Source: a virus. Taken from it: a DNA stretch of 64,000 nt. The stretch lies in the IMG/VR virus record IMGVR_UViG_3300045988_148355, positions 58,966-122,965 of that record; one strand, 5' to 3'. Numbering within the stretch: position 1 is the first letter of the stretch; the number at the start of each line of letters is the position of its first letter. The position numbers and the translations under genes were made by a program. Of this stretch, positions 862-56,898 are shown in pieces. A model generated the notes under the pieces. It had not been told where the DNA came from and made no database searches. It saw nothing but the letters and a program-made list of their open reading frames with translations.

Positions 862-1443
862 TTGCCTAATACATTAAATAAATATGTAAAATTTGTCAGA
901 GGTTCTAAAGTTGCTTTTGAAAATTTAGGAACAAAAAGAGACAATGATACTTTATATTTTATTTATGGAGAAAATGATTCTTCTGGAGAACTTTATTTGG
1001 GTAATCGTCTAATTTGCGGTGGAATTAGTTCTGCAGGTAAGTTAAGCGATTTAAGTGATATTGTTCTTAATGAAGTTAAAGCGAATCAAGTTTTAATTTA
1101 TGATGAAGGACAAAAGAAATGGATTAATTAGGGTTTAGAAAATAATGAAACCTTAATCAATTCTATTGTTGAAAAATTATCTACAGAAGAGAATTTAGCT
1201 AAATTAGCTCCTGTTTTTAAGGGCGTAGTTCCAGGTTTAGTTCCTGTTTCCTTGCATGAAACTAAAGGAAAACATATTCTTACCGATGCAGGTACTTGGG
1301 TGAATATGCCAGTGGGAACATTAACTTAGGGAGATATTGAAACAATTAATATAGCTAATAAATATTTAGTAGATAAGGGTCCTGATAATTTGGTAACTCG
1401 TGTTGAAGCAGTTGAACAAACTGTTTCTTGGGCTGATATTTAA
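862..1443 (+). CDS. tail-fiber-like protein carrying the phage fiber N-terminal motif (KFVRGSKVAFENLG...LYFIYGE...GELYLG); TTG start; TAG at 1129 and 1327; TAA 1441
   Basis: RBS aaggag 8 nt upstream of the start. Track ORF 862..1131 continues in the same frame through two TAGs to TAA 1441. Confidence 0.55.
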
Positions 1444-1457
1444 AGGAGTGAAAAAGA

Positions 1458-3125
1458 TTGAACGTTAAGTTTTTAAAAGGCTCTCAAGCCGAATTTGAAA
1501 GAGTGGCAGGTAGATATAAACCTGGTGCATTTTATTTAGTAATTAATGATGATAAGTCCGCTGAGGATTATAAAAAACCAAGTCGTCTTTATTATGGTGT
1601 AGATGAAAATAATTGCGTTCCTGTAAATCAAGGTATTAATGTAATTAATACTACCGCAGATTTACCTCAAAGTTTTACTCAAAACACCGCTGGCGAATTT
1701 TATTATGTAAAAGATAAAAATATTTTATGTATTAATAATGGTAAAGATTGGATCCAAACTAATACCGATACTGTTTTAGATACTGATAAGAAGAATAGTA
1801 ATGTATCAGTAAATAGTAATCCTGAAAAACCTAATGGAGTTTCTATAACTAATACTATTGCTGATAGTAGTGGTAATATTATTACTGAAACTTATGATGT
1901 TGTTGGCAGTGATTATATTCAGGTTGAAGCTGTTCCCGCAGTTGGTGATAAAGGCGTAGATACTGTTAAACTAAGTTTAAAAGGAATTAATTATCAATTA
2001 GGTTCTTCTTTAAATAAAAAAACTTTAAATGTTAATTTAAAGAATGATGATGCTGATGCGGGTAATTTTAATATTATTGCTGGTAGTAATGTTAATATTG
2101 CTGAAACTTCCACAGGAAATTATACTTTAAGTGTAGACAAAGCGGTCAATGAATTTGCCATTAACAATCATGCTACTGGTACTGGTTTTACTGCTTCTAT
2201 TACTGGTCCTGGTATTGAAGGAAAAAATAGCACAACTTTATCTGCGGATATCGATCCAGAAATTGCTTTAGAAGGTAAAAGCGGTGGTTATAAGTTCAAG
2301 AATGGCGTTTTAACTCTTCCTGTTTATAGTAAGCAAGATATTGATAATCAACTTAGAACCATTAATGCTATGGTGTTTCGTGGTGGATTTTAGATTACCA
2401 ATGGAGCAATTGTATATGATGATACAAAAATTAATACAAATCCTAATATTGCTAAGGGTAATACTTTTATTTACACTGGAGCTGATGATGTTCTTTGGGA
2501 TGGCCATTATTTACGTACCGGAGATTTAATTATTGCTTCTGGCGAAGAGGTTGAAGGAATTATTACTGGTACTATTAAATGGACTTATGTGCCTTCTGCT
2601 GATGATCCTGTTACTGAAGTTGAAGGAGCCAGTGATAATAGTACTACTGGTTTTATTATTAAACTTGGTTCTACTAAAGAACTTTTAGATTACACTCTTA
2701 ACGGCGAAAGTGGTATTGTTTTAGAAACAAAAGTTTTAGAAGATTTAAAAGGTCAACCTACTAATTCTAAAGTTGTTACTATTAAACATAGCAATACTTT
2801 AACTGTAAATGATCCAGTCCCTCAAGATTATGCTGATGAACAAACTATTACTATTAACGAGCCAACTGAGATTGATGCCCAAGGACATGTGGTAAAATCT
2901 ACTCAAAAGACTTTTACAGTAAAAAATACTCACCAAGAAATTTTGGCGAATGGCTATACAACGAATGGAACTGATACTTTAATTCCTAGACTTAAAATTG
3001 CTGGTGCTGATTTTGAAAATGAACCAATTACTTTTACTAGTGATAGTTTAAAAGTAAATGTTTCTGCAACAGCTGAAAAATCTAACGCTAAAGTCAATTT
3101 TGAGTTAGAGTGGGGAACATTCTAA
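1458..3125 (+). CDS. tail fiber protein (~555 aa) formed by merging track ORFs 1458..2393 and 2589..3125 across in-frame TAG 2391
   Basis: Both ORFs are in frame 0 and the stretch between them has no TAA/TGA. N-terminal motif FLKGSQAEF...LYYGVDENN matches the phage tail-fiber N-terminal domain. RBS aggag upstream. Confidence 0.6.
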
Positions 3126-3186
3126 GGGCAATACTATTTAATAATAAATATAATTTTTTCTATTTTATATAGAAGAATGTTTTTAT

Positions 3187-3226
3187 GGGGAAAGATGAAA
3201 TATTCTTTCCCCATATTTTTTTTAGG
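3187..3226 (+). terminator. rho-independent terminator
   Basis: Hairpin ggggaaagatgaaatattctttcccc followed by a T9 run. Confidence 0.5.
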
Positions 3227-3243
3227 ATAGAAAGGAGTAAATT

Positions 3244-6200
3244 ATGTCTAAGATACGTTTTCGTCCCGTTTAGGGCCCAGAAGAAAAAATAAAGGCATAT
3301 CCTCAAACTGATGGATATTTTTATGTGGCAACAGATACAGGACGAGTTTATTTAGATACAGCGACTGAGAATAAAATACCGATAGGCTCAAGCGGAGTTT
3401 AGGTAATTTATGGAACTGAAAAAGAAGTCGAAATTGATTATGATGCAGATGAGAATCCAATTGGATATTCAATTCATTTATCTAATTTATCAAGTTCTAA
3501 TCCTCATATAAATGATTTAATTTTAAATAGCGATGGAGCATTTTATCGTATTAAAAAATTTAAATTAAATGATGATAAAGAAAAAGTTGCAAGTTGTGAA
3601 AAATTATTGGCGGGTGGTGGAAATCAAGACCAAGAAATTAAAGTAAATGGTACTGTTTCTTTAACTTTAGATGGTCCTACTGATGTGCTTAATGGTGAAT
3701 CAGTAAGTGTAACCGCTCTTGTAAAATGTAGAACAATAAACGGAGATCCAGTTCTTGATTCTGTTGAAGGCACTTTAACTATTAGATAGAAAAAAAGTGA
3801 TGGTTCTTGGGAAGATATTTATAGTGAAGCAAAAACTTATCAACATAATAAACCAATTACTATTGATATTTCAGCTCATTTAAGAAAATCTTCCACACAT
3901 GAAATTGAGTTTATTGTTAGTAAAAATAGTGATCCTACTAACAATCATTTTTCTACAACTAAGAAAACTCAATTTATAACTACTCATGAATTAACTCTTT
4001 AGTGGTAGGAAAGTAAATTTAATAATAATTTGCCTTTTGACAATGGTTAGATTAATATTACTTGGTTAATGTCCAATAAAGTAAATAGCGCTATTGAAGT
4101 TTATTTTGATAATTATTTAGTTTTAGATAAAGAATATGATAATACTAATACTAGAAATGAAGATAGTATTACTATAACAAAGAATACAATTATTTTAAAT
4201 AATAATAATGATTCTATAATAACTTTAGCAAATTATTTTCTTCATGGAGAACATACCATTAAAGCTAAACTTTATTTAGTTAATAGTGGTGAAAAAGGAA
4301 ATGGTACTGATTTTATTGAGAAAGAAATTGTTATTTTAGATAAAAGTAGCAAAACTCCTTTAATTTGGACTGGGGATTTTAAAACTGAATATTACACTTA
4401 TGAAACTATTAGAATTCCTTTTAGAGTATATGATCCCAATGTAATAATTGCGAAAGTTAGCTTGTATAAAAATGGTGTCTTATTAAGTACTCGTGAAATT
4501 GCTGATTAGACTATATGGCAATATTGGGAAATTACTAATCTTTCTGTTAATGATAGTTCCTATTATACAATTAAAGTAGGAACTGAGCCATATGATTATT
4601 CTCGTAATTTTACTTTTACAATTAAAATAGACCCATTGAGAAATATGGAATTGGCTAGAAGTAATGATTTAAAAGTTAATTTTGTTGCTACTGGACGCTC
4701 TAATTCTGAGAGTAAATTAAGCCGTGAAACATTAGAAATTAATGGTAAATATGCGGAATTTAAAAACTTTAATTGGTATAATAATGGTTGGGTTTTTGAT
4801 GATAATAATACTACTTGTTTAAGAGTTAGTAATGGAGCTGAAGTCTCTATTCCTATTGGATCATTATCTTTTGATAATAGTTCTTCTACTCCTACTCATA
4901 GTATTGAAATTCAATTTAAAATTAGAAATCCACAAAATTATTCTAAAGTAATTACAAAGTATACTCGTTATAAAGCAAGTGATGATTCTGGAAAATCTTG
5001 GACTGATAGAGACGCTTGGAATGCATTTAAAGATTAGTCTACTTATGTTAATTATGATGAATTCTTAACAAAAAAATATTTACCAGAACATCCAGAAGCA
5101 CCAAGTTATGATGAATTAACTTATAATGGATTAGATCAAGATTTTAATTTAAATAATCTTGTTTGTGCTTACGGTTCTTTAAAAAATCCTTTAGGTATTT
5201 ATTTTAGCCCTCAAGATGCTGTATTTACAGCTAATGGCGATGAAGAGACTGTTTCAGTTGATTTTGTAGAAGATGAAATGTTATATTTAACATTTGTTTA
5301 TACAAGTTCTAAGCCTGGCCATACTGGTGGAGATTCTAAATTATTAGAAATTTTTTTAAACGGTGTTTTAACTAGTGTAGCTCGTCGTTCTGATAAATCT
5401 AGCAATTCTGCTTGGACAATTGATTCTGATGTGATTAAATTTATGTCTAATACTTGTGATATTGATATTTATAGTATTAGAGTTTATGATGCTAGCTTAA
5501 CTATTCCTGACGTAGTTTAGAATTATGCTTTTGATAAAAAAGATATTAATCAATGGGACCAAAAAGATTTATATGATTATAATACTATTTTAAACGATTA
5601 CGTATTTTCTTATCGCAAAATGCTTGATTACAATACTGACCATAGTGATAAACCATTAATGCCATATATTATTTTAAAAACTACTAAAAATAATAGTGAA
5701 AGCACTGATAATAGACTTCCATACTCTAAAGAGAATGGTGCTCAAAAAGGAACTATGGAATTCGTAAATGTCCCATTAGATATTGCTTATGCTAAGGGCG
5801 AACTTGATAAAATAGTTGAAAAAGAGGGTTGGAAACCAGTAATAGATGAAGAAACTAAGGAAATAAAATATACTGCGGTATAGAATTATTATTTACATCA
5901 TTGCCCCAGCTTTATAACTCTTTTTGATAAAGCAACATTTTAGGTTTAGGGAACTTCTTCTCGTAATTATCCAAGACGTAATTATAAGGCTAAATGTAAA
6001 GAAGCTATGTTTATGAATAGAGGACCTTTTGAATCTATTTATAAAGAAGAAGAAGCAAATAATAATTTAAATACAAAAAGTAAGAGTTATCTTAAATTTT
6101 TCTATATGGATAATAATACTGTTGGTACTACTAAGTTTACTCTAAAAATTGATTTTATGGAATCTTCTGGAGATTATAATAGAGGATTTGCTAATTTAGT

Positions 6201-9200
6201 TAATGAAACTTATTCTAAGCATCCAATAGAAGATTATCAGGAGTCTTTTGATAAATATGATTTATATGAAAATGCTGATGATTATAGAACTTCTATGAAA
6301 GGATATCCTGTTTTAGCATTTCATTGGCCTTCAACTAATGACAATGAATATAGTGAAAATGATATTATTTATATTGGAAAATATAATATGTTATTAGATA
6401 AGGGGTCTGATGAATGTTTTGGATTTAAACCTGATAAAAAGGTTTTATAGAATCAAATTAATGGAACTCCAAAAGTAAGAGATATTGCTGAATGTTGGGA
6501 ATTTTAGAATAATTCAAGAACATATTGTTCTTTCCGTGATCCTTGGAATAGATATAAATTATCTTTTAGACCTCCATTAATGGATGATAAAAATTCAACA
6601 GGTTACTTAACTTCTGGCGGAGCTCCAATAGTTGCTGACTCTTTCGAAGTTAGATATAACTCTAATGATGATTTAATCACAGACCAATTATTTAAGTGCA
6701 TTTCAGCGGAAGCTACCGACGCAGATAAGATAATTGAATTTACTGACGCAATAAATAATACAGTTCCCGATAGATTAAAATCAGAAACCATTATTGATAA
6801 TTCTACTGGCATTAAACATAAACAATGGACTATTACTAATCCAGGACAAAATCCTATCATCTTTGATATGAAGAATAGAAATACTTCTCGTGAATTACTT
6901 CTTGCATTAATGTCAAATTGGGAAGATGCCGTAAGTTGGGTTTGGAGTACTTGTTTAGATTGTAGCATTGATTTTGATGGAGTTTTATATGAAATTCCTT
7001 CAATGGGTCAATATGAGAAAATAGATTTAGCTGAAGCTAAGTATGAGCCAAATAAATATTATCTATTTGATAAAGTTGATGAAAATGGTAGCGAAACTTA
7101 TAAAATTGCCACTGAAGATTTTAATTTAGAAGAAAAATATTATATTTATAATAAAGACAGTAAAGTTTATAGTATAATTAAATTAACTGATGATGATAAT
7201 AAAGTTTATTAGATAAATAAATACTATATTTTATAGAATTAGGATAATAAAATTTATATCTTAGATTCTGAAAAATATAATCCTTATACAACTTATTATT
7301 CTTTTATTGAAGATGAGAGCCAAATTGATGATAGATGGTTATTACCTACACCGATAACTTATAACTCAATTACTTACCATAAAGATAGTAAGGAATATCG
7401 TCAAGCTAAATTTAAAAATGAGTTAAGCAATTATTTTAATATTGAATATTTAGCTACTTACTTTTTAATGACTGAAATTTTTGAATGTTATGACTCTCGT
7501 GGTAAAAATGCGATGTTTGCTTCTTGGGGTCCTCAAAAAGGAAATATTGAAAAAATCACTGGAATTCAACATTATATTTGGTATCCTATTTTTTATGATA
7601 TTGATACTCAATTAGGTATTAATAATACTGGTATTCCATCATTTGAATATTATGTTGATGCTACTGAAGATGGTAGTTATTCTACTAATGATAGTGTATT
7701 ATGGAATAATTTCTATACTTTCTTTAAGAGCAAAATTGTTGATAAATACAAGCAATTAATGGGTAAGCCAAATGGATCTTATGATTAGAGCCAAGTAAAA
7801 CAAATTTTTAAGAAAGAATCTGGAACTTCCTCTAAAAAAAGTGATGTTGTTGATAAATGGTATAAAACAGATCCTTCTTTATTCCCAGGTAGTTATGCTG
7901 TATAGGGAGAGCGTCCTATTATTGCTTTAAATTTAGATGAAGAATATAAATATATTATTCCAACTAATTCAGCGGCCAAGGATACTATTTTTGGTCGTAT
8001 TACTAATGGTGGTTAGTATGAAGTAGAAACTGATTAGTATTTTTATGCTTTATAGGGTGACCGCAATCTTTATCGTTCTCAATTTTTAACTAATCGTCTT
8101 AATTATATTGACTCTTGGTTAACCGTAGATGAATATTCTGGAGATAGTGGTAGTAATAATATTATAAGTCGTATTTCTGCTAACAATCCGAATACTACAT
8201 CTGATGAATGGATTGAAGGAACTAATAATTAGGGATTAACTAATTTAATACCAAATTCTCCTTATTGGAAAGATGGAGTTGAATTTGGCGCTAAAAATCA
8301 TATGTTCGATGGTGAATATTGGATTGAGATGGAACCAGCACGTCGTTCTTATGTTACTGTTGGAACAGACGGAGCAAATTTCCCATCTTAGAAATATGAT
8401 GGTTTAACTCCAGTTAGATTTACTGCCCCAGACTTAAAAAAAGGTATTATGTCAAGTGGTAATTATCGCGAACAATTATATTATATTTACGGACTAGAAC
8501 AAATGAAATCTCTTGGAGATTTAAGTAAATTATATTTCCAAGAATTATTCATTAGAGGTAAAGCTAATAAATTAGTAGATTTATTATTAGGATATGATGG
8601 TCTTTCCGAGCAAGGAAAAGAATATAAAAATAATGATGTAAATAATTGGAGTTATCCTAGTGAAGGTATGCCTCTATTAAAAGAAATGAATCTTTGTAAT
8701 ATTAAATTTTTAAATCCAGTAGCTTTAGATTTAACTAAAAGTGAAAAATTAGAAAACTTTAGAAATACCGGTTCTAATGTTACTAAAGTTTAGTTTGCTG
8801 AAGGAGTTGCTTTAAATACTTTATATTTAACTGATTATACAAATTACTTAAGTTTAATAGAAGCAAATCTTTTAACTAAATTAGTTACTAAATATGTATA
8901 TCCTACAGTTAATCCTATTACTAATCGTCTTGAGGTTGCAGAAGAAAATAAGGGGTTATATATTAAGAATCTAACGGATGTCGGAGATACCGCAATTACA
9001 ACAAGTATAAAAACTTTTGATATCCGTGGTGGTAATTTAGATTATTATTCTTATGAATTATTAAGACGTTATTATCTTGGGTGTGAAAAAAGTAATTTAA
9101 TGGGATGTGAAATTAATTTAACTAATGTCCAATGGAGTCCTTATAGACTGTTAAATGATGATAAAACAGAATTGAATAGTAATATTGAGTATTATAAAGA

Positions 9201-10944
9201 TAATGGACACTTCCAATTAGAAAAAATTAATATAGAAGATATAAGTAAAATTACTCCAAGTGAAATAAAGAATAATTTAATTTATTATTATGATAATAAT
9301 ATAAATGGATATAATGATATTCATAATAAAATTACTGATTATACTTTATTACGTAATTTATATAATAAAGCTCCGGTTTATTTCAAAGGTATTAATTAGA
9401 CTCATCCTAATATAACTGGTGTTATTTATATTGAAAATGCTCAAGAAATAGAAGAACATGTGATTCAAGAAGAACTGCAAAGTATTTATCCTAATTTAAT
9501 TATTTTTGTAAAAAATGTTAAAAAAGAATATTCTGCTAAATTTGTTCTTGAACAGGAAAATACGGATGGAGTACTAACTCAAGAAATTTTAAAAACTTAG
9601 AAATTACCTTTATCAAGCACTAAGTTTTTTGATAATCCTACGAATTCTTCAAATGAGACTTATATTTCTTTTGGCAGCTTGCAAGAAAAAATGCCTACTT
9701 ATGACTTTAAAGGTTGGGAAGATGATACTGGTGAATTAATAATTACAATTGGAAAAGATGTAAATGAAAAAGATATTGTTTTAAAAGATAATTGGGATTC
9801 TTTATCTTTGCGATCTGATAAAATAGATTATATTTTTAAAGCGAGATTTGAGCGTAAATCTTATACAATTACTTTTGTTAATGGCGATCGTGTTATTGAT
9901 GATTCAACTGTAAAGAAAGTATTTAATTATGGTGAAAGAATTACTGTTCCAGAAGAATTCTATTATTTTAATAATACAGAAGTATCTGATTTACCAAAAG
10001 GTGAAGACTCATTAGAATGGACTTGGAGATAGACGGGATGGGCAGATAAAGATGGAGTTAAAATTGATTTAACTAAACAATTAGCTTATTCCGACCGTGA
10101 ATTCTATGCTGTTGGAGAGCCGATTAGTGTTTATGATAATATTTTAACTAATGATTCTACTCATAAATATTATGATATTATAAATTCTGATGGAGAGTTA
10201 TCATTTGTAATGACTGACTTAGCTAAGAATTTAAAAGGCAAAGTTACTTTACCTACAACCTATAATGGCTAGCCAATTACAAGGATTAGATATACTTAGG
10301 TGAATCCCTCTGCAGCTGTTGGTATTCAAGTAAATCCTAATATTACAGCAATATTTTTTGCTCCAAAAGATAGTAATAAAGTTTCTGTAATAGATGATTA
10401 TGCTTTTATTTTAGATGAAGGATTAGAATATTTCCAATTTAGTAATTGTTTAAAGAAAATTGGTATTAAAGCATTTTATAGATGTCCTTTAAGTTATAAC
10501 AATATAATTCCTTATTCTTCTTCAACTGAAGGATTAAGTTTTGGATCTCAAGCATTTTATCAAAGTAAGATGGGATCTTATTCTCCTTATAATTTAATTA
10601 TAGAAGGATGTAAAGATGGTATTCTTAATTTTGATTTAAATGCATTTTCTGGTTAGACAATTTTAAATATGTCTGGTAATCAATTTAAAGGATATACAGG
10701 AGCTATTTAGATATAGATTGGTACAAATAAACATCCAATTAAACAAATTACTGTTGATAGTTCTGGTAATATTTTTACCCCTAGTCGTACTGGTATGCCT
10801 ACTATTGTTAATGGATATACTGGTCGTTTTAGATATTATTATGTTGGTAGCTATGGTGAAAATGTTAAAAATACTTTACACAATATTTATGAGGCAATGA
10901 TATCTAATAGAGCGAACTTTGAAGAAGAACCTATTGTAAAGTGA
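3244..10944 (+). CDS. giant structural protein (~2,566 codons; tail fiber, host-specificity or tail-associated protein) containing ~33 in-frame TAG codons; ATG 3244, stop TGA 10942
   Basis: Fourteen track ORFs (4069.., 4636.., 5278.., 5620.., 6007.., 6580.., 7468.., 8449.., 9100.., 9679.., 10300.. and others) all lie in frame 1 (start mod 3 = 1). They are separated only by TAG. The first TAA/TGA in this frame after 3244 is TGA 10942. RBS aaaggag at 3231-3237. Confidence 0.55.
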
Positions 10945-10953
10945 GGATAAATT

Positions 10954-11155
10954 ATGGAAAAAGAAATTGTTTATAGATATATGGGTTCTAATGGTATTAT
11001 TGAATCTTCTATATAGTTATCAGGAATTTCTGCAACTACTTTATATAGATTAATAGCAGATTACAATAAAAAATTAACGAGAGATGGAAAAGAGTTTTTT
11101 TTCATCTCTCCTTTAGTTCCTGAAAATGAATTAAAAGAGTGGTATGAGGTTTAAA
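10954..11155 (+). CDS. small hypothetical protein (66 aa, one in-frame TAG)
   Basis: An ATG follows the TGA of the giant gene after a ggataaatt spacer. The frame is open to TAA 11153. Confidence 0.35.
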
Positions 11156-11250: not shown

Positions 11251-12927
11251 TTGATAGTTAAAAATGATAGCGTTATCGAGCAAGCTAAGTGGGAAGAACT
11301 TCAAAAGAAAATCAATACTTTAGCTAAAGATAACAAAATAAAAAACGTTAATGGAAAAATCGTTGAAATAAAATCTATTGAAGACTATTATAGTAACATC
11401 ACTGGTATTGTTCAAATGAAGAAGCTAGATCCATCTGTTCTTCGTATACCTTTAGATGAGCCTATTATAAATATAAATGCTGATACTCGTCAAATTGAAT
11501 TAACTAAAGAGTTTGGAAAAACTCAATTGCTTACTGTTGAAAATGATCATTTGGCAGAAACAATTTATTTTCAAATTGATAGATATTTTGATTTATAGGA
11601 TTTGGCGGCTGATGATATTAAAATTTATATTTAGTATTATTTAAACGATCAAATTCAAGGTTATTCTGAAGCTATTTGCCCTGATATTGGTACTGCTGGA
11701 AAATTAATTTTTGGTTGGCAAATTAGTGATGAAGTAACTAGTGAATCTGGTACTTTATAGTTTTCTATTATTTTCTTCAAAAAGAATCCAAAAGATAATA
11801 ATAATTTAATGTATGTATTTAATACATTACCTGCGCAAATGGTTATTAATAAAACTTTAGACATTGATGAAGATTTAGTTACTGCGCAACCTGTTGATTA
11901 TTTAACTGGGTATTTAGAAAGCTTAATTGATTCAAAGAAATCCGCAGGCTTTGGAGTTCCTGATAATGTGGCTTTCTTGACAAGTATTTTGAATAACAAA
12001 TCAGTTTATTTAACTGGTGATAAATTATATGCTTTAGCTTATAATGATACTTTAAATAATCCAGATAATACTACTATTGAGTATAAATGGATTTGTAATT
12101 ATAGAGGAACTAATACTGAATTAAAAAATGGTATTGGTTATGAATATAAAAAAATTGTTGATGATAATAGTATTTTTAGTGGAGATATGGCTTATAATGA
12201 AAAATTGACCTATTTTACTAAAAATGGAGATACTTATATTAATAGTAGTAGTGATATTAATCTTGAAAATTATGTTGCTAAAAAGAATGACCTTTATTTA
12301 AAAGTTCAATATTGTGAAGTTGATGGATGTGGAAGTTATAGTGTGACAGCATTTGGCGCAACCGCGAATCAAGTAAGTAAAGAAGTTAAATGGGTAGGAT
12401 TAAGTGTTGTTGTGGAAGGTATCAGTGAAGATTTTAAAATTATTCTTGATCCCTCTCCTGATAATGGATGTTATTATGGCTCTTCTAATACAATTACTGC
12501 TATTGGATAGAATGATGAGGGAGTTCAATGTACTTATCTTTGGACAAAGAATGGATCTGAATTTAGTAATGAAAAAACTGTAACTTTAACTCAAGAAGAT
12601 AATTACACTTTAACAGTTCATGGGTATAAAAATAAAGATAATATAGATTATGGTCCAATTAATTTTACTAATTATTTTGATCCTATTAATTTAGTGCCTA
12701 CTGGTGAAGTAAAAACTGAAAATGGAAAATATATTGTTAATATCACTAATACTAGTGAGTTGGGAAATGGAATTTATGAATATTAGTGGAAAAATGCTGA
12801 AGGTGTTACTCAAATAACTACTTCTGGAACTAATAATGCAATAGAAATAAATGAAAATATTACTCAAGTGGCTGTCATTATCAAAAAAGGCGAAAGAAAT
12901 TCAAAGCCAGGAGTACTTACGATATAA
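11251..12927 (+). CDS. structural protein (~558 aa) with a conserved VENDHLAETIYFQIDRYFD motif; several in-frame TAGs; TAA 12925
   Basis: Track ORFs 11251..11598 and 11809..12510 share a frame and are joined through TAGs. TTG start preceded by RBS gaaaggaag. Confidence 0.5.
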
Positions 12928-12939
12928 GAGGTAAGATAA

Positions 12940-13560
12940 ATGATAACTAATCCAACTGATTATTATAGCGTTTTACATCAAATACAAGATGAAAATTTCC
13001 CGGTAAAATATCCAGCTCTTCCGGCTCCAGAAGATGAAAAATTAGTTTAGGTAAATTTAAATTCAAGGACTATTAGTAATGAAAATAATTATATTACAGT
13101 TGAGGGTGATCACGCTGCTGAAATTATTTATTTTGAAATAGATAGATATTTTGACACTATGGATTTAACTAATATGATGTGTATTATTCAGTATATTAAT
13201 GCTGATAATGAAAAACGCATTTATCCAGTTCCATATTATGATACTTTGACTCATAAAGATAAAATTATTTTTCCTTGGGTTTTAAATTATAGCGCTACTA
13301 AAAAATCTGGTAATTTAAATTATATGATAACTTTTTACAGAATAGAAAAAGATTCTAATAATTTATTATATAATTTAAATACATTACCAGCAAGTCTTCA
13401 GGTTTATTCTAAACTTAATTTAGATTCTATCGTAAAAGAAGAAGATTATTATGTAATTGATGATAGCCAAGTAGTTCAACAAATTTGGGAGCGTTTAGCT
13501 CGTTTAGAAGGATTTGTTGGTGGTAATGGGTTGGATGTTTATTGGATTGTTCTTGAATAA
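12940..13560 (+). CDS. paralog of the preceding gene (motif VEGDHAAEIIYFEIDRYFD); one in-frame TAG
   Basis: ATG 12940 preceded by RBS aagagg. Same frame as track ORF 13159..13560. Shares N-terminal architecture with the 11251 gene. Confidence 0.5.
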
Positions 13561-13633: not shown

Positions 13634-14662
13634 ATGGCTCTATTTAAAATTTTAAAAGGAGACTCAAATAATTTAGTTTCCTATGACAATGCTGAAGTGG
13701 TTAATGGTAAAGTTCCTTTTCCTGCCTTGGGTTCAGGAAAAACTTTATTTACAACAATAGACAGTACTCCTATTACAGAAGGATATGCTTATTTCACAGA
13801 AGATACTCATAAATTTTATATTGATACTAAAGACAAAAGATTAAATTTATATACTGATCACTCGGATTATGCTACTTATGATGAAAATGGACGTAATTTA
13901 GCAGAATTATCAGAAGTATCTTATGAAAATATTGATGATACTGGAAGTAAAATTGGTACAATAAATATTAATGGAATTGAGCATAATGTTACTTGTCCTA
14001 CTAATATAGTAAACAAACCTATAAATAAATATGTGTTTACAGCAAAAGCAAACTAGAATACATTTACAATTCCTTTCGATTTTGATGATAGTAGCGCTTT
14101 AACTTTATATTATAATGGTATTATGTTAAAAGAAACAGATCATTATACCATTAAAGGAAAAGTTATTACTTTAAATGGATGGACTAGTGAAGCTAATGAT
14201 TATCTTGCGGTTATGGGTATTGAAGGAGCTGCCGCGATCAACGTAGATGAAAAAGTTGCTTAGATTTAGGAAGCAGTAGACAATGCTGAAGTAACTATTA
14301 ATAATAAAGTAAGTAGCGCTATTAAACAAATTGATGATAAATTAGCAACTGTTCCCGATGACGTAACACAAGCAATTTATAAAAATAAGTCTAATATAAT
14401 GACTAAAGATGGTAAAATTACCATGGATAATACTTATGTTCCTATCGCGGATATGGATTTAGCAACTAAAAAATATGTTGATAATGCCACACCTCCTACA
14501 GTTGGAACTACTACTGATTATTCTATTTATATTGGATCTACTCAACCCGCATCTGGGACCGCACCTTTAGTGTGGATAGATACAACTGCTAAAACTGGTA
14601 CTTTTAAATATAGAACTTCTACCACAGGCACTTGGACACCTGTTCCCGTGGCTTGGATTTAA
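13634..14662 (+). CDS. tail-fiber-like protein (~342 aa); N-terminus MALFKILKGDS...GYAYFTEDTHKFYID resembles the phage fiber N-terminal domain; three in-frame TAGs
   Basis: Track ORFs 13634..14056 and 14399..14662 are in the same frame. RBS aaaggag upstream. Stop TAA 14660. Confidence 0.5.
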
Positions 14663-14696: not shown

Positions 14697-15107
14697 ATGG
14701 ATCAAAATTTAATTAATCAGTTATTCCAAGTATGTTTGATTCCTATGCTTGGCGCTTTAACTACTTTTATAGTTATTTGGATTAAAGCAAAAAGTACAGA
14801 ATTACAAAAGAAAACTAATAATGATATTTTGAATAAATATGTACAAATGGCTACTGACACAATTACCAACTGTGTTATTGCCACTAATCAAACTTATGTA
14901 AATTCTCTTAAAGAGCAAGGTAAGTTTGATGAAGCTGCTCAAAAAGAAGCATTTTAGAGAACTTATCAAGCGGTATTACTTATTTTAAGTGATGACGCTA
15001 AAGAGTATTTAAATAATGCTTTTGGTGATTTGAATAAATATTTACAAGAAAAGATTGAATCTACAGTAAATAATTATCGTACTCCAAGTGATGATTTAAA
15101 ACAATAA
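14697..15107 (+). CDS. small membrane protein (single TM helix LIPMLGALTTFIVIWI); one in-frame TAG; TAA 15105
   Basis: Track ORF 14697..14957 extends through a TAG. Hydrophobic N-terminal segment followed by a charged tail. RBS aaaaggag upstream. Confidence 0.4.
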
Positions 15108-15152: not shown

Positions 15153-15476
15153 TTATCTAAATGGATTTTTCCATCGTCGATTAATTTCTTCATAGCCTTT
15201 TTTAGGAAAGTATAAAACTTCACCATTTTTAAAAGTTAAATTATCTTTATTCATTATTTTAATTTGATTTAAATTAATAATTAAACTTGGTGGGATAAAG
15301 ACAAAATCTGGATGGTAAACTAAAGTCCCTATATAATTTTTAAAAGAAGTTTTTAAAGTTTTACTATTTAAAACCTCATTTTCTAAATGGCAACATAAAT
15401 TTCGTTTTTGGATGTCAGCATATAATACTTTATTCAAATCAATTTTTATTTCTCCATTAGGAGTGTCTAAATATTT
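15153..15476 (-). CDS. LytTR DNA-binding domain, reading frame offset -1 relative to the upstream REC domain ORF
   Basis: Track ORF 15153..15437 shows LytTR signatures: LYADIQ..., FVFIPPSLIINLNQI..., TFKNGEVLYF. Its frame is open upstream to ~15476, where the domain begins (EIKIDLNKVLY). Confidence 0.5.
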   Translation of the reverse strand, partial: KYLDTPNGEIKIDLNKVLYADIQKRNLCCHLENEVLNSKTLKTSFKNYIGTLVYHPDFVFIPPSLIINLNQIKIMNKDNLTFKNGEVLYFPKKGYEEINRRWKNPFR

Positions 15477-15808
15477 TTATATTCACGTCTTTTTTCTTCT
15501 CTAATTTCATGTAAAATAGAAAAAATTTTTTCTTTATTAACAGGTTTTTTGACAAAATTAAATGCTTTTACTTCATAAGAAGCCACTCCATAATTTATTT
15601 GAGAGGAAACAAAAATTATTTTTCCAATATAGCTATTTACTCTTAAGAGATGAGCTATTTCAATACCATCCATTTTTTTAAATGTAATTCCTAAAAAAAT
15701 TGCATCATAATCAATATTAGAGTTAATTAATTTTTCAGGATCGGTAAATTTATATACATATCCTGGTAAATTAAAATCTTTAAAATACTGATTTATTATT
15801 TCTTCCAA
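15446..15808 (-). CDS. response-regulator receiver (REC) domain protein; the track ORF ends at TAG 15467, and reading that TAG as sense gives TAA at 15446
   Basis: Motif DAIFLGITFKKMDGIEIAHLLR...IIFVSS matches REC beta3-alpha3, but the phosphoacceptor Asp is replaced by Gly (FLGI). Confidence 0.5.
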
Positions 15809-15949
15809 TGAGTCATTTTGCTAATCGCTATTGTCGCAAACACCTACGATAAAAATTTTAATCACCTTCATTTTGTTTATTTTAGAAAAAATTTTTCTAT
15901 CTTTATATTCTTTCTACATTATAATTATACAAAAATTTTTAAATATTGT

Positions 15950-24554: not shown

Positions 24555-25160
24555 TTATTTATCTTGGTCCATTTCCGCCCATTGCTTAACTTTTTGAGTT
24601 AAAAGGTTAACAATATTATTGTAATCTTCTAATGTTTCATTTGTCATAATATTGCATTTAATATCATTCATTAGTTGAAATTGAATTTCATCAGTAGTAT
24701 ATCTTCTAATGATTTCATTTACATCAGGGTTTTTTTCTCTATTTAATTGTCTAATTAAGCGTGTCTTTCCTTTAGCGGTGATATAATATATCTCCAATTC
24801 AATTCTATCATCTTTAAGAAGACTTATAATTCCTTCAGGATTAAAAACACCAATATTAACTTTACTATCAGACAAACTATCAATACTTGTACCATAATAC
24901 CAATTATTAAAAGAAGTGGTTTCTAACATTTTATTTTCATCAATTAAAGTTAAAAACTGATCATCTGAAACAAAATGATAATTTTTGTCTGCTATTTCTT
25001 TTTCACGCTTCGGGCGCGTAGTGTGGCTTATAATAGGATTTAAATATTCTTCTAAGTGAGAAAAGGTAGCCATCATTAGGCTATCTTTTCCCGCACCAGA
25101 TTTTCCACATAATGCAATAATTTTATACATCTTCTTCAATTCCTCCTTGATAACGAGCAT
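24555..25160 (-). CDS. guanylate kinase-like nucleoside monophosphate kinase
   Basis: P-loop GKSGAGKDS and the TTRPKR...YHFVS signature. Confidence 0.65.
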   Translation of the reverse strand: MLVIKEELKKMYKIIALCGKSGAGKDSLMMATFSHLEEYLNPIISHTTRPKREKEIADKNYHFVSDDQFLTLIDENKMLETTSFNNWYYGTSIDSLSDSKVNIGVFNPEGIISLLKDDRIELEIYYITAKGKTRLIRQLNREKNPDVNEIIRRYTTDEIQFQLMNDIKCNIMTNETLEDYNNIVNLLTQKVKQWAEMDQDK

Positions 25161-28100
25161 CTTTTAAAACTAAATCGCCATTGGATAAAATTTCATCAAT
25201 TTTATATAATTGATGTCCTCCAGAAGAAGCATATTTTTTTGACATGAAATTATCTCCATTGCGGATTCCAGAGACTACAATCATATTTCCGCGATTAAAC
25301 CAAGATTTTTCAACAATATGTTTGGTTCCATCTGCACCGCGCTCTGAAATTTGTTTATCAAACAAACTAAAATATTCTTTTCTAAATTTTACTTCTACAG
25401 GACCAGTAGTAGTAAGAATAGTTACGGTGCTTTTAGTTTTATTTTTTGCAATACAAGTCCCGCAAATCTTAAATAATTTATAAATATGAATAGTATGATT
25501 TCCTTTAGTGAAACTTCTGTCAACTATTGGATCTTCTGGAAGTTTAAAGAAATCTACAAATCCATATTTATCATTGTTAATATTATTCAATTCATGAGTA
25601 TGATAATAATAACAAAGAACTTCCATTTCCCAAGCAGATAAATTATTTTTATTAGCATATTTATTCCAATCATCTTTAAATATTTTTATATTTAGATTAT
25701 TTAAAATTTCATCTTTGTTATTAGCAATCCAAGTGCGAAATATATCCATCCATTTTTGGTATATACCATTCCAAATATTCTCACTTAAAGAATAATTAGT
25801 TCCATCAAATTGAATATTATTATCTTCTCCAATTTCTACTAAGAAATTAATAGCTCGTTCATCAAGTTGATATAGACCATTATTTTTTGTAGTTTTACAA
25901 ATTGCTTTTAAATATCTATTAAATTCATAAATACGGCGAGCCATAATTTGACTTTCATTTTCTTCTGGAAGAAGATCATACTTCATAAGTCCGCCCATAT
26001 TTTGAAGAGTAATTCTTTTCTTTTTATCGCAAGTTTCCCAAATATACCAAACCATTAATTCTTTTCTATCCATCATATTATCAAAGGCTCCGCCTTTAAT
26101 AAGAGAAATCATAGCTTGTTTACCTGGCTTAATACGGTATAAAAATTCTTTAGGATTTGAATAAGGACGATTAGCAATGATTGTATTAACTAATTCATCA
26201 CCAACATTCAGCATACCTTTTAATCCGAAAAGAATTTTATTATTTTCAATATCAGGAGCAAATCCAAATTTAGATTTGTTAATATCAGGAAGACCTACTT
26301 CAATTCCTGCTTTTTGAATGTCACTAATGGCCTTAGCAATTTTTCCATAATCAGTGGCCGCGGTTTTGCGGATTTTACCACTTTTATCAGGGAGATCTTC
26401 AAATGTTACTCCATTAGCTAAATCATCACCTTCAGGAGCATAAATATCTACAATCTCTTCTTCACTATTATCTTCAAGGGAACCGCTATTGACAATTAAG
26501 CAAGCAGTATCCCAATAGATGGGATTAAAATGAATTACTAAGTAAATCATTTGAATTGCCACAAATGAATAAGGAAGAGAGTGATTAAGACTAAATGCGT
26601 ATCCTAATTGAGGAGCAACGGCGATTTCCCAAAAGTATTCAGCAGATTTTTCATTATCAAATTTACTAAATACTTGCTCTCTCAATTGTGGAATTTTAGC
26701 CATTTGTTTTTTAGCAACAATCTTACGCGCAGTATTAGCTTCACCAAGAGTAAAATGAGCCACATCCATAAGGATTTCCATCATTTGCTCTTGGATAGGG
26801 CAACATCCATAATATTTATCACAATGTTTATGCATCTTATCAATTAATTCTTGTGGAAGATGCTGAGCTTTCATTTCATTATCAAATACTTTAATGCCTG
26901 AATGCTGAATGCGATAATATCTATCCTGCTGTGATTCCTTACCTTTTTCAGACATAAGACGCATCATAGCATTGGCTGCTGTCATTTCCATAGGGTCTTG
27001 GGGTTTAAGGCGTTTCGCAATCGCCAAACCAACACCCGTAGAAAATTGGAATACATCTAATACATCACCGGCAGCGAGGTGATCCCAAATTGCTTGATCG
27101 GTTGTATCTATTACTTCTGGATGAATATATTTATTATAAAATTCTCGCAAAGATAATTCTGGAATCTGTTTATCTTTTAGAAGTAATTGATAACAAGTAA
27201 TAATTTTGTCAGAAGCTTCAGTTACGAGGAAATCATATTTTGTATCTCCTGCGGCTTCCGCTTTATGAAGATCCCAACAAGTAATCATATCTCCGCTAGG
27301 AGTTCTCATAAATGATGCGGTATCAAATGGATCGTCACCATATAAAATAACGCCAGAAGCATGAGAAGAACGTTTATTAACCATTCCTTCAATATATACA
27401 ATAATATCCAAAAGACCAGGATATTGATTTACTTCTCGAATAAATGCTTGAACGGGTTTACGGTCTTTTTCCTCATTACCATAAATAACATCATGGATAG
27501 GCCATAAAAATCCACGCTCTTGAGGAATTAACGAAGACATATATTGAGCATTATCAACATCGATTCCTTCTGGAAATTCTTCACTTCTATATCCACGACA
27601 AGCAGTTAAAATACTCTGTTTAGTGCCTTCTGTTCCAAACGTAGCAACTTGAACCAGTCCTAATTCTCCGCGTTCTTTTCTAATTGCTTTAAAAATTGCG
27701 GGGCGTTTACTTGGAGCAAGGTCAATATCAATATCAGGTAATTCTGCGCGCTCCTTATTTAAGAATCTCCAATAAGGAAGTCCCCAACGAATTGGGTCTA
27801 ATTGAGTAATACCTAAAAGATAATTAGATAAAAAACCAGTCGCAGAACCACGTCCAGGTCCTACAATACTTCCACACTCCCAAAATAAATTAATATAGTG
27901 TTGGAAAGTATTAAAATAAGCGAAAAGACAGTCATCTAATTTTTCACCAATATCTTTTATAATATCAGCTTCAATTTCAAGTCGTTCCAAATAATTTTTA
28001 TTATCATAAAGTTGCTTTTCTTGTAAAGCTTTAATACATTCATTTACCCAATATCGTTCTTGAATATTGTCGCTATTAATTAAAGAACAGATAATTGGAT

Positions 28101-29136
28101 ATTTATCGAACCAGTTTGAAGGAATAAATCCTTTCTTATAATCCTTTACTTCAACTTTTGGAATAATTTGTTTTCTTTCTAATGAATAAAAAGAAATTTT
28201 ATTTTGAATCTCTTGAGTGTTATCAAGAATCCAATTTATCAATTCTTTTCCTGTTTTATTACCTTTATCCCAATCATTAGCATAAGGTTCCATTAATTCA
28301 AGAATTTCATCACTTGTCATTAAGTAAGTAAATTTATAGAAATCGTCAACTTCTCTTTCTCCTGGCTTAGAAGTAAGATATGCTTTATGAATGGGTCTAT
28401 CTTCTTTAGTTAAATAATGCGCATCTGTTCCAACTACCATTTTTAAATCAAATGCCTTGGCGATTTGATAAATTTTATGATTTACAATTATTTGCTCAGC
28501 ATCAGTAGACGGCGCACATTCAAGATAAAAATCATCTTTTCCAAATACTTTAATACAAAAATTGATATAATCAATTATTTGATTATAATATTTAGTTTGA
28601 GTTTCAATATCTTTATTTAATTCAGCTTGGAACATTGGTAAAATACAACTACCAAGTTCTCCACCAATACAGGCAGTCGTTGCTATAACATGCCCTTTAT
28701 ATTGTTCCATTACCATTTCAAGTTCACTTTTTAAAGTAGGAACTCGTTCCATTCGTCTATCAACATAACTATGAATCCAAGCAATAGAACTTAATTCTCT
28801 TAATGCTTTATGTCCAAGAGCATCTTTAGCAATAAGAATAAAGTGGTAATATTTTTGTCCGCTATCTCTTGTATCAGTAAGATAAATTTCATTACCAAGA
28901 GCAATAGTAAAATCAGGATTTTTTTCTCTTAATTTCTGCGCATATTGATTTACTTCCATATGCGCAGAAAGGCACTCATGATCTGTAATAGTTATTCCTG
29001 ATAGCCCTAATTCTATTGCTTTGTCAATAAGGGCTTGGGGTCTATTAATACAATCTAATAAACGCAAATTAGAATACATTGTATGATTGTGAATCCCGAA
29101 ATATGATCTCATTCGCACATTCCTTTCATCTTTCAT
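25123..29136 (-). CDS. dnaE: DNA polymerase III alpha subunit (C-family, DnaE-like) with an N-terminal PHP domain; zero TAG codons in 1,337 codons
   Basis: PHP motifs GIHNHTMYS and DHECLS. Catalytic PDIDIDL motif. Confidence 0.85.
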   Translation of the reverse strand: MKDERNVRMRSYFGIHNHTMYSNLRLLDCINRPQALIDKAIELGLSGITITDHECLSAHMEVNQYAQKLREKNPDFTIALGNEIYLTDTRDSGQKYYHFILIAKDALGHKALRELSSIAWIHSYVDRRMERVPTLKSELEMVMEQYKGHVIATTACIGGELGSCILPMFQAELNKDIETQTKYYNQIIDYINFCIKVFGKDDFYLECAPSTDAEQIIVNHKIYQIAKAFDLKMVVGTDAHYLTKEDRPIHKAYLTSKPGEREVDDFYKFTYLMTSDEILELMEPYANDWDKGNKTGKELINWILDNTQEIQNKISFYSLERKQIIPKVEVKDYKKGFIPSNWFDKYPIICSLINSDNIQERYWVNECIKALQEKQLYDNKNYLERLEIEADIIKDIGEKLDDCLFAYFNTFQHYINLFWECGSIVGPGRGSATGFLSNYLLGITQLDPIRWGLPYWRFLNKERAELPDIDIDLAPSKRPAIFKAIRKERGELGLVQVATFGTEGTKQSILTACRGYRSEEFPEGIDVDNAQYMSSLIPQERGFLWPIHDVIYGNEEKDRKPVQAFIREVNQYPGLLDIIVYIEGMVNKRSSHASGVILYGDDPFDTASFMRTPSGDMITCWDLHKAEAAGDTKYDFLVTEASDKIITCYQLLLKDKQIPELSLREFYNKYIHPEVIDTTDQAIWDHLAAGDVLDVFQFSTGVGLAIAKRLKPQDPMEMTAANAMMRLMSEKGKESQQDRYYRIQHSGIKVFDNEMKAQHLPQELIDKMHKHCDKYYGCCPIQEQMMEILMDVAHFTLGEANTARKIVAKKQMAKIPQLREQVFSKFDNEKSAEYFWEIAVAPQLGYAFSLNHSLPYSFVAIQMIYLVIHFNPIYWDTACLIVNSGSLEDNSEEEIVDIYAPEGDDLANGVTFEDLPDKSGKIRKTAATDYGKIAKAISDIQKAGIEVGLPDINKSKFGFAPDIENNKILFGLKGMLNVGDELVNTIIANRPYSNPKEFLYRIKPGKQAMISLIKGGAFDNMMDRKELMVWYIWETCDKKKRITLQNMGGLMKYDLLPEENESQIMARRIYEFNRYLKAICKTTKNNGLYQLDERAINFLVEIGEDNNIQFDGTNYSLSENIWNGIYQKWMDIFRTWIANNKDEILNNLNIKIFKDDWNKYANKNNLSAWEMEVLCYYYHTHELNNINNDKYGFVDFFKLPEDPIVDRSFTKGNHTIHIYKLFKICGTCIAKNKTKSTVTILTTTGPVEVKFRKEYFSLFDKQISERGADGTKHIVEKSWFNRGNMIVVSGIRNGDNFMSKKYASSGGHQLYKIDEILSNGDLVLKDARYQGGIEEDV

Positions 29137-32516: not shown

Positions 32517-32689
32517 AAATGATTTTCTCCTAATAGGTTTTTTAAGTCTATTAGTCGTAGTGTCAATTATTAAAAATAATAAGCAGCCCTATCTACAATT
32601 TCGTAATCTTCTATAATAATCTAAGGACTAATGTTATTATTCCATATATTTCGTTCGCATTTACCAACGATATTAATTGTCACATAACC

Positions 32690-56878: not shown

Positions 56879-56898
56879 TATTATCCTCCTTTCTATAA

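What the first reader, a model, noticed from the sequence alone, without database searches (positions are those of the whole stretch)
3244..10944. Giant ~2,566-codon ORF in the tail module, invisible to the standard-code ORF track
Fourteen same-frame fragments are joined solely by TAG codons from ATG 3244 (RBS aaaggag) to TGA 10942. It is preceded by a terminator and followed immediately by a new RBS and start. The size and Asn/Tyr/Thr-rich composition suggest a host-recognition, tail-fiber or tail-associated multi-domain protein. It is a single transcript and translation unit that only exists under the recoded code.
Basis: seen in the sequence. Interest (0 to 1): 0.6.

Follow-up and report, generated by a model that had tools for sequence, protein, structure and literature searches.

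The report
Giant TAG-recoded phage tail adhesin gene
This is one real 2,566-codon phage gene that can only be read if the stop codon TAG is translated as glutamine. It encodes a roughly 295 kDa multi-domain tail adhesin from a large, already noticed but unstudied family, so it is a solid but fairly ordinary example of a known phenomenon.

Summary
The ORF is real. It runs from ATG 3244 to TGA 10942-10944, 2,566 sense codons, with no in-frame TAA or TGA (chance about 1e-80). It holds 33 in-frame TAGs, so 34 fragments, not 14.

TAG means Gln. All 16 TAG differences from a 93%-identical relative are swaps with CAA or CAG. Two TAGs sit on Gln residues conserved across the family. One of them, in the (V/I)QGTSS motif, is CAA or CAG in four standard-code phages. 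Uninterrupted 2,516-aa and 2,598-aa homologues exist under the standard code. dN/dS is 0.09 along the whole length.

The protein belongs to a family of giant phage proteins of 2.0-2.9 kaa (phrog_14959; 1,656 cluster representatives). The family includes the Hankyphage putative tail fibre that is a DGR (diversity-generating retroelement) target.

Architecture:
- conserved N-terminus
- beta-rich region
- LamG-like lectin jelly roll
- CotH kinase-like core with invariant Asp, Asn and Lys residues
- LRR solenoid
- InlB B-repeat
- variable BspA-type LRR head

Position fits a tail-tip adhesin: a holin lies 3.7 kb downstream, and a relative has tail genes upstream.

Verdict: new member of a known kind, with modest interest. 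The open question is whether the CotH module is an active enzyme.

The parts
3184..3225 (+). Intrinsic-terminator-like hairpin (12-bp stem, 5 GC pairs) followed by T8. It closes the preceding gene (1458-3125).
3231..3237 (+). Shine-Dalgarno AAAGGAG, 6 nt upstream of the ATG
3244..10944 (+). Giant gene: 2,566 sense codons with 33 in-frame TAG read as Gln, ending in TGA. Predicted 295 kDa, pI 5.0.
3271..3273 (+). First in-frame TAG (codon 10). Under the standard code, translation would stop after 9 residues.
3244..3633 (+). Conserved N-terminal domain (residues 1-130; the first 50 residues average 42% identity to distant homologues). It is the presumed attachment domain. The fold was not modelled.
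   Evidence: A distant family member, P0065, has BppU_N at this position.
3634..4650 (+). Beta-rich, weakly Ig-like region (residues 131-469). Not modelled.
   Evidence: phrog_24896. Blocks colinear with Hankyphage and NatCom proteins. Only faint Ig hits.
4651..5493 (+). LamG/ConA-like lectin jelly roll (about residues 470-750)
5881..7803 (+). CotH kinase-like core (about residues 880-1520), with a variable insertion at about 1111-1370. Invariant motifs are VQGTSS..YPRRNYKAK (901-919), YDSRGKN (1416-1422) and FYDIDTQLGINNTG (1450-1463).
5947..5949 (+). TAG at codon 902. It encodes the Gln of the (V/I)QGTSS motif: Q in 52/52 homologues, and CAA or CAG in four standard-code phages.
8053..8055 (+). 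TAG at codon 1604. It encodes the Gln of ALQGDR: Q in 49/52 homologues, and CAA in L004 and L005.
8494..9303 (+). Conserved region of short periodic beta-strands (about residues 1751-2020). Its sequence pattern and the generic LRR matches of the C-terminal model suggest an LRR-type solenoid. Which part of the model each match covers was not resolved.
9496..10143 (+). Region with InlB B-repeat-like domain(s) (about residues 2085-2300)
10171..10941 (+). Variable C-terminal BspA-type LRR head (about residues 2310-2566)
10954..11154 (+). Conserved 66-aa ORF (1 in-frame TAG) starting 9 nt after the giant gene's stop. A syntenic small ORF (66-73 aa) follows the giant gene in L003, L004 and L005.
14697..15107 (+). 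Holin, as context: it marks the end of the late structural block.
   Evidence: phrog_13712, E 1e-37

Best explanation
A single late gene of a TAG-to-Gln (code 15) recoded phage encodes a roughly 295 kDa distal-tail adhesin or receptor-binding protein. The phage is low-GC, and relatives sit on contigs of about 193 kb.

Shown:
- The 34 fragments form one reading frame under purifying selection.
- TAG stands for glutamine.
- Orthologues of the same length and architecture exist, some under the standard code.
- The protein combines a LamG-like lectin domain, a CotH kinase-fold core, an InlB B-repeat and a BspA-type LRR C-terminus.

Inferred:
- Early in infection the host reads the TAG at codon 10 as stop, so nothing is made.
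- Once a phage suppressor tRNA-Gln(CUA) acts, the full protein is translated together with other TAG-rich late genes such as the endolysin. That tRNA is not in this window and is presumably elsewhere in the genome.
- The conserved N-terminus docks the protein on the tail tip.
- The lectin-like domain and the variable C-terminal LRR head bind the host surface and set host range.
- The conserved CotH-like core is either an enzyme or a rigid scaffold.
For: One gene:
- No TAA or TGA in 2,566 codons, with a chance probability of about 1e-80.
- 64 homologues of 2.0-2.8 kaa (plus one 1,677-aa entry), with up to 100% coverage.
- L004 and L005 homologues are intact standard-code ORFs with 0 in-frame TAG.
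- dN/dS is 0.086 overall and 0.045-0.116 in each 320-column window of the codon alignment.

TAG = Gln:
- 16 of 16 discordant TAG sites against L003 are CAA or CAG.
- TAG codon 902 is Q in 52/52 homologues and codon 1604 in 49/52. Codon 902 is CAA or CAG in L004, L005, Hankyphage and NatCom; codon 1604 is CAA in L004 and L005.
- Gln codon use is CAA45/CAG2/TAG33 here and CAA40/CAG44/TAG0 in L004.

Tail adhesin:
- phrog_14959 hits are colinear.
- Homology to the Hankyphage DGR target and to a NatCom protein, both located after TMP, hub/Dit and minor tail protein.
- The Hankyphage gene is called a putative tail fibre in PMC12135933.
- Holin downstream and a phrog_1887 tail protein upstream in L003.
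- Conserved N-terminus and variable C-terminus.
- LamG and CotH folds; LRR and B-repeat folds.

Late gating: TAG density is highest in this gene and in the endolysin, and zero in the DnaE polymerase, primase and GyrB-like genes. This matches the pattern reported for recoded phages in bioRxiv 10.1101/2021.08.26.457843.
Against: - No suppressor tRNA and no Rfam match were found in the window or in the 27-kb loci of relatives, so the decoding machinery is not seen.
- There is no virion proteomics, and no tape-measure or baseplate gene lies inside the window itself.
- Some replication genes also contain TAG (RecJ-like 6, DnaB-like 2), so the early/late split is not clean.
- The N-terminal 470 residues were not modelled.
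- The Pfam LRR_5 hit in the window protein is below the cut-off.
Confidence: 0.78

Rival explanations
1. Under the standard code the region is a string of separate small genes, or a decayed pseudogene. The long frame would then be an accident of low GC content.
For: Standard-code ORF calling gives only fragments of up to 210 aa. No tRNA(CUA) was seen in the window.
Against: - Chance of no TAA or TGA is about 1e-80, and the other two frames are full of TAA/TGA.
- dN/dS is 0.09 across all fragments, including 1-19-aa pieces that could not be genes.
- Intact standard-code orthologues of the same length exist.
- TAG sits at invariant Gln positions.
Confidence: 0.01
2. It is a single gene, but TAG is decoded as an amino acid other than Gln (for example Tyr, Trp, Leu, Ser or pyrrolysine), or is bypassed.
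For: At many TAG columns distant homologues carry K, S, T or E rather than Q. No tRNA is available to read an anticodon or identity elements from.
Against: - 16 of 16 TAG differences from the closest relative are Gln codons.
- Codon 902 is Q in 52/52 homologues and codon 1604 in 49/52.
- Q is 4-5 fold enriched at TAG columns in distant homologues: 12-16% against 3% background.
- TAG-to-Gln has been shown by metaproteomics in other gut phages (PMC9523058, listed).
Confidence: 0.02
3. It is a virion-associated protein but not the primary receptor binder. It could be an accessory fibre or decoration that adheres to glycans or mucus. Alternatively its main job could be enzymatic, through the CotH-like module, which would phosphorylate phage or host proteins during assembly or entry.
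For: - The strongest conservation is in the CotH-like core, with invariant D1417, N1422, D1452, D1454 and K915/917/919. That pattern is typical of an active site rather than a scaffold.
- Several other fibre-like genes flank it (862-1443, 1458-3125, 11251-12927, 13634-14662), and any of them could be the true receptor-binding protein.
- LamG and BspA-LRR modules are generic glycan and protein adhesins.
Against: - The homologous Hankyphage protein carries the DGR-diversified head, the hallmark of the host-range determinant (PMC6199706, PMC12135933).
- The C-terminal head is the most variable part, and family members swap heads: LRR_5, DUF6273, Lcl_C, C-type lectin. That is the pattern expected of receptor-binding proteins.
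- ATP is not available outside the cell for a kinase acting at adsorption.
Confidence: 0.15
4. It is not a virion component. It would be a giant secreted or cell-surface protein made late in infection, for example for superinfection exclusion or host-surface remodelling.
For: BspA-LRR and InlB B-repeat modules are typical of bacterial surface proteins. No signal of virion incorporation was measured.
Against: - It lies inside a same-strand block that runs from tail-like genes to the holin.
- Synteny with tail modules holds in two annotated phages.
- PHROG membership is a phage family.
Confidence: 0.04

Closest known systems
Hankyphage (Bacteroides phage p00, BK010646) 2,245-aa DGR-target 'putative tail fibre', and the 'category f1' DGR targets of Wu et al. 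2018 (about 2,000 aa, with CotH and Laminin_G_3 motifs)
   Same: - Giant size.
- Colinear beta-rich, LamG and CotH-like blocks with the same motifs: (V/I)QGTSS..YP.KN and D.R.KN.
- Position at the distal end of the tail module.
- The architecture was noted in PMC5758913 and PMC8008677.
   Different: - Only about 22-24% identity over parts of the protein.
- Hankyphage uses the standard code (0 in-frame TAG).
- Hankyphage ends in a DGR-diversified variable repeat. The window protein ends instead in an LRR-like solenoid, InlB B-repeat(s) and a BspA-type LRR, and no DGR was looked for or seen near it.
Code-15 (TAG to Gln) recoded gut phages: crAss-like, Lak, and the Jade/Sapphire/Agate/Topaz clades (Borges et al.; Peters et al.)
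   Same: - In-frame TAG is concentrated in structural and lysis genes and absent from several replication genes.
- TAG behaves as Gln.
- Close and distant relatives use the standard code.
- The relatives' contig size of about 193 kb lies in the range given for the large recoded clades.
   Different: - The clade was not assigned.
- No suppressor tRNA or release factor was seen in the 64 kb available.
- Some replication genes carry TAG too.
CotH atypical protein kinases (PF08757; B. cereus CotH, PDB 5JDA)
   Same: - A family member (P0067) hits Pfam CotH above the cut-off, exactly in the stretch aligned to residues 1378-1502.
- Invariant Asp, Asn and Lys residues are spaced like a kinase catalytic loop and metal-binding motif.
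   Different: - 10% identity.
- No Pfam CotH hit for the window protein itself and no sequence-level hit to solved CotH.
- A roughly 260-residue insertion splits the two lobes.
- The domain is embedded in a 2,566-aa virion-type protein rather than being a 360-aa spore-coat enzyme.
- Activity is untested.
BspA-type LRR surface proteins (PF13306; TpLRR 6MLX, BACOVA_04585 4FS7, PcpA 4CP6)
   Different: Here the module is the variable head of a phage protein. The window protein's own Pfam score (18.9 bits) is under the 27.7-bit cut-off.

Membership tests
TAG-to-Gln (code 15) recoded phage gene | Long frame interrupted only by TAG, never by TAA or TGA, far beyond chance | tested here: met
   33 TAG, 0 TAA or TGA in 2,566 codons; P about 1e-80
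TAG-to-Gln (code 15) recoded phage gene | TAG aligns with Gln or Gln codons in relatives | tested here: met
   16/16 TAG to CAA/CAG swaps against L003. Codon 902 is Q in 52/52 homologues and codon 1604 in 49/52; codon 902 is CAA or CAG in four standard-code phages, and codon 1604 is CAA in L004 and L005.
TAG-to-Gln (code 15) recoded phage gene | Phage-encoded suppressor tRNA(CUA), or release-factor manipulation | tested here: inconclusive
   No tRNA or Rfam hit in the 64-kb window or in L003/L004. About two thirds of the roughly 193-kb genome is not available.
TAG-to-Gln (code 15) recoded phage gene | Recoded codons concentrated in late (structural or lysis) genes | tested here: met
   Giant gene 33, endolysin 9; DnaE polymerase, primase and GyrB-like 0. 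Exceptions: RecJ-like 6, DnaB-like 2.
Giant LamG+CotH phage tail proteins (phrog_14959; Hankyphage-type) | Significant colinear match to the family profile or its members | tested here: met
   phrog_14959 at E 1e-36 and 7e-24, colinear. tblastn and blastp to Hankyphage and NatCom proteins in 3-4 colinear blocks.
Giant LamG+CotH phage tail proteins (phrog_14959; Hankyphage-type) | LamG-like jelly roll followed by a CotH-like domain | tested here: met
   [not shown]
Giant LamG+CotH phage tail proteins (phrog_14959; Hankyphage-type) | Gene located after the tape-measure, distal-tail and tail-associated genes | tested here: inconclusive
   The window starts only 3.2 kb upstream. In L003 a phrog_1887 tail protein and a Dit-like protein lie upstream, and a holin lies downstream. 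No tape-measure gene was identified.
Giant LamG+CotH phage tail proteins (phrog_14959; Hankyphage-type) | C-terminal C-type-lectin variable repeat diversified by a DGR (this defines the DGR-target subset only) | tested here: not met
   The C-terminus is a BspA-type LRR. The protein is therefore a family member but not a member of the DGR-target subset.
CotH kinase family (PF08757) | Pfam CotH match above the gathering score | tested here: not met
   No CotH hit at E <= 1 for the window protein. Only the distant member P0067 passes: 25.9 bits against a 23.8 cut-off.
CotH kinase family (PF08757) | CotH-type atypical kinase fold | tested here: met
   [not shown]
CotH kinase family (PF08757) | Catalytic Asp and metal-binding Asp (B. 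subtilis D228 and D251) conserved | tested here: inconclusive
   Invariant D1417..N1422 and D1452/D1454 exist. Their residue-level equivalence to the CotH residues could not be established, because no alignment output was available and no sequence hit was found.
CotH kinase family (PF08757) | Protein kinase activity | not testable with these tools
   Needs a biochemical assay
BspA-type LRR (PF13306 LRR_5) | Pfam LRR_5 above the gathering score | tested here: not met
   Window protein scores 18.9 bits against a 27.7 cut-off. Homologues P0029, P0025 and P0049 pass.
BspA-type LRR (PF13306 LRR_5) | BspA/TpLRR-type solenoid fold | tested here: met
   [not shown]
Phage tail fibre or receptor-binding protein | Presence in the virion tail and a role in adsorption | not testable with these tools
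   Needs virion proteomics, EM or adsorption assays

The most novel reading that the evidence does not exclude
The CotH-like core could be a catalytically active kinase carried on the virion. This family of giant tail proteins would then do chemistry as well as bind. It might phosphorylate virion proteins during assembly, in the way CotH patterns the spore coat. Or it might modify a host envelope or cytoplasmic target at entry. That would make it a widespread, previously uncharacterised class of enzyme-bearing phage receptor-binding proteins, with 1,656 cluster representatives.
Probability: 0.25. Interest if true: 0.65.

Novelty: new member of a known kind. Interest (0 to 1): 0.35.

Why it matters
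- It is a clean worked example of how standard-code annotation shreds a recoded phage's largest structural gene into 34 pieces. It also shows how comparative codon evidence alone can fix the meaning of TAG: swaps with CAA/CAG, and TAG sitting on a family-invariant Gln.
- It places the gene in a large, unstudied family of giant LamG+CotH tail proteins. That family includes the Hankyphage host-range determinant, and its members swap C-terminal heads. This is useful for predicting the host range of gut phages.
- The invariant kinase-like residues make a concrete, testable hypothesis.

None of this overturns current understanding.

Tried and rejected
- blastn of the gene against 50,697 phage records found no real relative, only a 145-nt chance-level hit.
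- Pfam on the window protein gave only sub-threshold V-set and LRR_5 hits.
- PHROG scans of the neighbouring genes mostly returned nothing.
- Family-profile and single-sequence searches of PDB sequences never reached CotH. The CotH link rests on fold and on the transitive Pfam hit.
- A 60-sequence full-length alignment failed.
- I suspected a shared Mtd_N/BppU_N-like N-terminal motif between the giant protein and neighbours 862-1443, 1458-3125 and 13634-14662. blastp support is only E 0.009-0.2, so I dropped it as evidence.
- No tRNA or tmRNA was found in the window, L003 or L004.
- No internal + strand terminator was predicted inside the ORF. Promoter-like hits are at background level for this AT-rich DNA: 76 observed against 61 +/- 8 expected.
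Full report
**Observation**

- The stretch 3244-10944 (+) is 7,701 nt. It starts with ATG and ends with TGA.
- It contains 33 in-frame TAG codons and no in-frame TAA or TGA.
- An in-frame TAA at 3238 makes ATG 3244 the first possible start.
- AAAGGAG lies 6 nt upstream of the ATG. A 12-bp GC-containing hairpin with a T8 tail lies at 3184-3225.
- Nine nucleotides after the TGA a 66-codon ORF starts at 10954.
There are 34 fragments, of 1 to 234 residues. The lower number matches the pieces long enough to appear as standard-code ORFs.
- With the local base composition, the chance of 2,566 codons without TAA or TGA is about 1e-80. The two other frames of the same DNA hold 130 and 434 such codons.

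**One gene, and TAG = Gln**

- A search of 5.8 billion proteins returned 64 homologues of 2.0-2.8 kaa (plus one 1,677-aa entry). These range from 93% down to about 25% identity, many covering 94-100% of the query.
- The closest homologue is P0001, on 192-194-kb contigs. Its DNA (L003) also has 33 in-frame TAGs.
- P0029 (L004, 2,516 aa) and P0025 (L005, 2,598 aa) are uninterrupted ORFs under the standard code.
- In a codon alignment of the window and L003, 25 TAGs are shared. All 16 discordant sites are TAG against CAA (15) or CAG (1).
- Nei-Gojobori dN/dS is 0.086 overall, with dS 0.38. It stays between 0.045 and 0.116 in every 320-column window of the codon alignment, so selection acts on this frame across every TAG.
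- At TAG codon 902 all 52 aligned homologues have Gln; at codon 1604, 49 of 52 do.
- Codon 902 is the Gln of the family motif (V/I)QGTSS. It is CAA or CAG in L004, L005, Hankyphage and NatCom_3357.
- Gln codon use is CAA 45 / CAG 2 / TAG 33 here and CAA 40 / CAG 44 / TAG 0 in L004. TAG has in effect taken the place of CAG.

**Genomic context**

- The window is 30% GC.
- Reading TAG as sense raises ORF coverage from 13.7k to 20.7k residues.
- The giant gene sits in a + strand block that ends with a holin at 14697-15107.
- In L003 the genes upstream include a Dit-like protein and a 778-aa phrog_1887 'tail protein'.
- The rest of the window, on the - strand, encodes:
  - a DnaE-type polymerase
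  - NrdD, a Dda-like helicase, RecJ, primase, DnaB, PhoH and an endolysin
- TAG use per gene is highest in the giant gene (33) and the endolysin (9). It is zero in the polymerase, primase and GyrB-like genes, but RecJ has 6.
- This is the late-gene recoding pattern described for gut phages.
- No tRNA or Rfam family is present in the window or in L003/L004.

**What the protein is**

- PHROGs gives colinear hits to phrog_14959, a 2,494-position profile of unknown function.
- tblastn finds the 2,245-aa Hankyphage ORF that carries the DGR variable repeat and follows the tape measure, baseplate hub and minor tail protein.
- It also finds a 1,673-aa NatCom_3357 protein that follows the tape measure and Dit, upstream of holin and endolysin.
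- The shared blocks are colinear and include the same motifs.
- The literature calls the Hankyphage gene the putative tail fibre (PMC12135933).
- It had already been noted that DGR targets of about 2,000 aa carry weak CotH and Laminin_G_3 motifs (PMC5758913). CotH-domain phage proteins were described there as 'currently unstudied' (PMC8008677).

**Domain architecture**

- Conservation against distant homologues is high at residues 1-50 and across 350-2100, with peaks at 950-1100, 1400-1500 and 1600-1650. It is lowest in the last 470 residues.
- An AlphaFold2 model of residues 470-1660 of the 93% proxy P0001 has pLDDT 74.7 and pTM 0.70.
- A distant family member, P0067, passes Pfam CotH exactly where it aligns to residues 1378-1502.
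- Invariant columns in 22 sequences down to about 35% identity include VQGTSS..YP.RN.K.K, D-S-R-G-K-N and Y-D-x-D-T-Q-L-G-x-N-N. This is the pattern expected of a kinase catalytic loop and metal-binding motif. Residue-level equivalence to CotH D228 and D251 could not be checked.
- The family profile hits the same LRR proteins by sequence, at E 3e-21.
- Other family members carry different C-terminal heads (DUF6273, Lcl_C, and the DGR variable repeat in Hankyphage). One has a BppU_N baseplate domain at its N-terminus.
- A profile of the CotH-like C-lobe finds 1,656 cluster representatives at 50% identity (865 at E <= 1e-10). Most are proteins of 2.0-2.9 kaa with the domain in the middle.

**Mechanism**

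- Shown: a single frame under purifying selection; TAG = Gln; membership of the giant LamG+CotH family; adhesin-type C-terminus; placement in the late block.
- Inferred: the TAG at codon 10 blocks synthesis until a phage suppressor acts.
- Inferred: the conserved N-terminus anchors the protein at the tail tip.
- Inferred: the LamG domain and the variable LRR head bind the host surface.
- Inferred: the CotH-like core is either enzymatic or structural.

I put about 0.78 on this overall reading. Within that, I am near certain on 'one gene' and 'Gln', and at about 0.75 on 'tail receptor-binding or adhesin protein'.

**Novelty and score**

TAG-to-Gln recoding of late phage genes is established. The LamG+CotH giant architecture has been noted before. 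Full-length orthologues are already in public protein sets. This is therefore a new member of a known kind, with an interest score of about 0.35. The most novel reading that remains open is an active virion-borne CotH-type kinase (probability about 0.25).

Noticed in passing
window 55575-56879 (-): The endolysin (phrog_20388 plus amidase families) carries 9 in-frame TAG in 434 codons, 36% of its Gln-like codons. That is the second-highest TAG load among the larger genes, and it fits lysis timing being gated by the code switch.
   Followed up: partly
window 25123-29136 (-), 34989-36092 (-), 51452-53266 (-) versus 32570-34318 (-), 37038-38570 (-): The DnaE-type polymerase (39% identity to SPbeta-group phage polymerases), the primase and a GyrB-like gene have no TAG. 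The RecJ-like exonuclease has 6 and the DnaB-like helicase 2. The early/late split of recoding is therefore not clean.
   Followed up: partly
window 3244-10944 versus L004 10001-17551: CAG is almost absent from the giant gene (CAA 45, CAG 2, TAG 33). The standard-code homologue uses CAA 40 and CAG 44. TAG appears to have replaced CAG specifically, which is a single C-to-T transition.
   Followed up: partly
window 59118-60503 (-): This 461-aa ORF has an N-terminal hydrophobic segment and a long Ala/Glu/Lys-rich coiled region, and no PHROG hit. Its Gln codon use is inverted (CAG 18, CAA 3, TAG 0), unlike the rest of the window, so it may be a recent acquisition.
   Followed up: no
window 10954-11154 (+): A 66-aa ORF with one in-frame TAG starts 9 nt after the giant gene. 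A syntenic small ORF (66, 73 and 68 aa) directly follows the giant gene in L003, L004 and L005. It could be a chaperone or assembly partner.
   Followed up: partly
window 11251-12927 (+) and 12940-13560 (+): These adjacent genes share a domain of about 140 residues (blastp E 1e-15, 36% identity). They are tandem paralogues downstream of the giant gene, with the same arrangement in L003, L004 and L005.
   Followed up: no
window 15446-15919 (-): A response-regulator-like gene (phrog_8810; PF00072 on the L003 orthologue) lies on the opposite strand just after the holin, inside the late block. It has 3 in-frame TAG.
   Followed up: no
window 862-1443, 1458-3125, 13634-14662 (+): Three neighbouring ORFs begin with a motif that loosely resembles the giant protein's N-terminus (hydrophobic-x-F/L-x-x-G ... 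G-x-F/Y-Y ... L-Y). This hints at several fibres sharing one docking domain, but blastp support is only E 0.009-0.2.
   Followed up: partly
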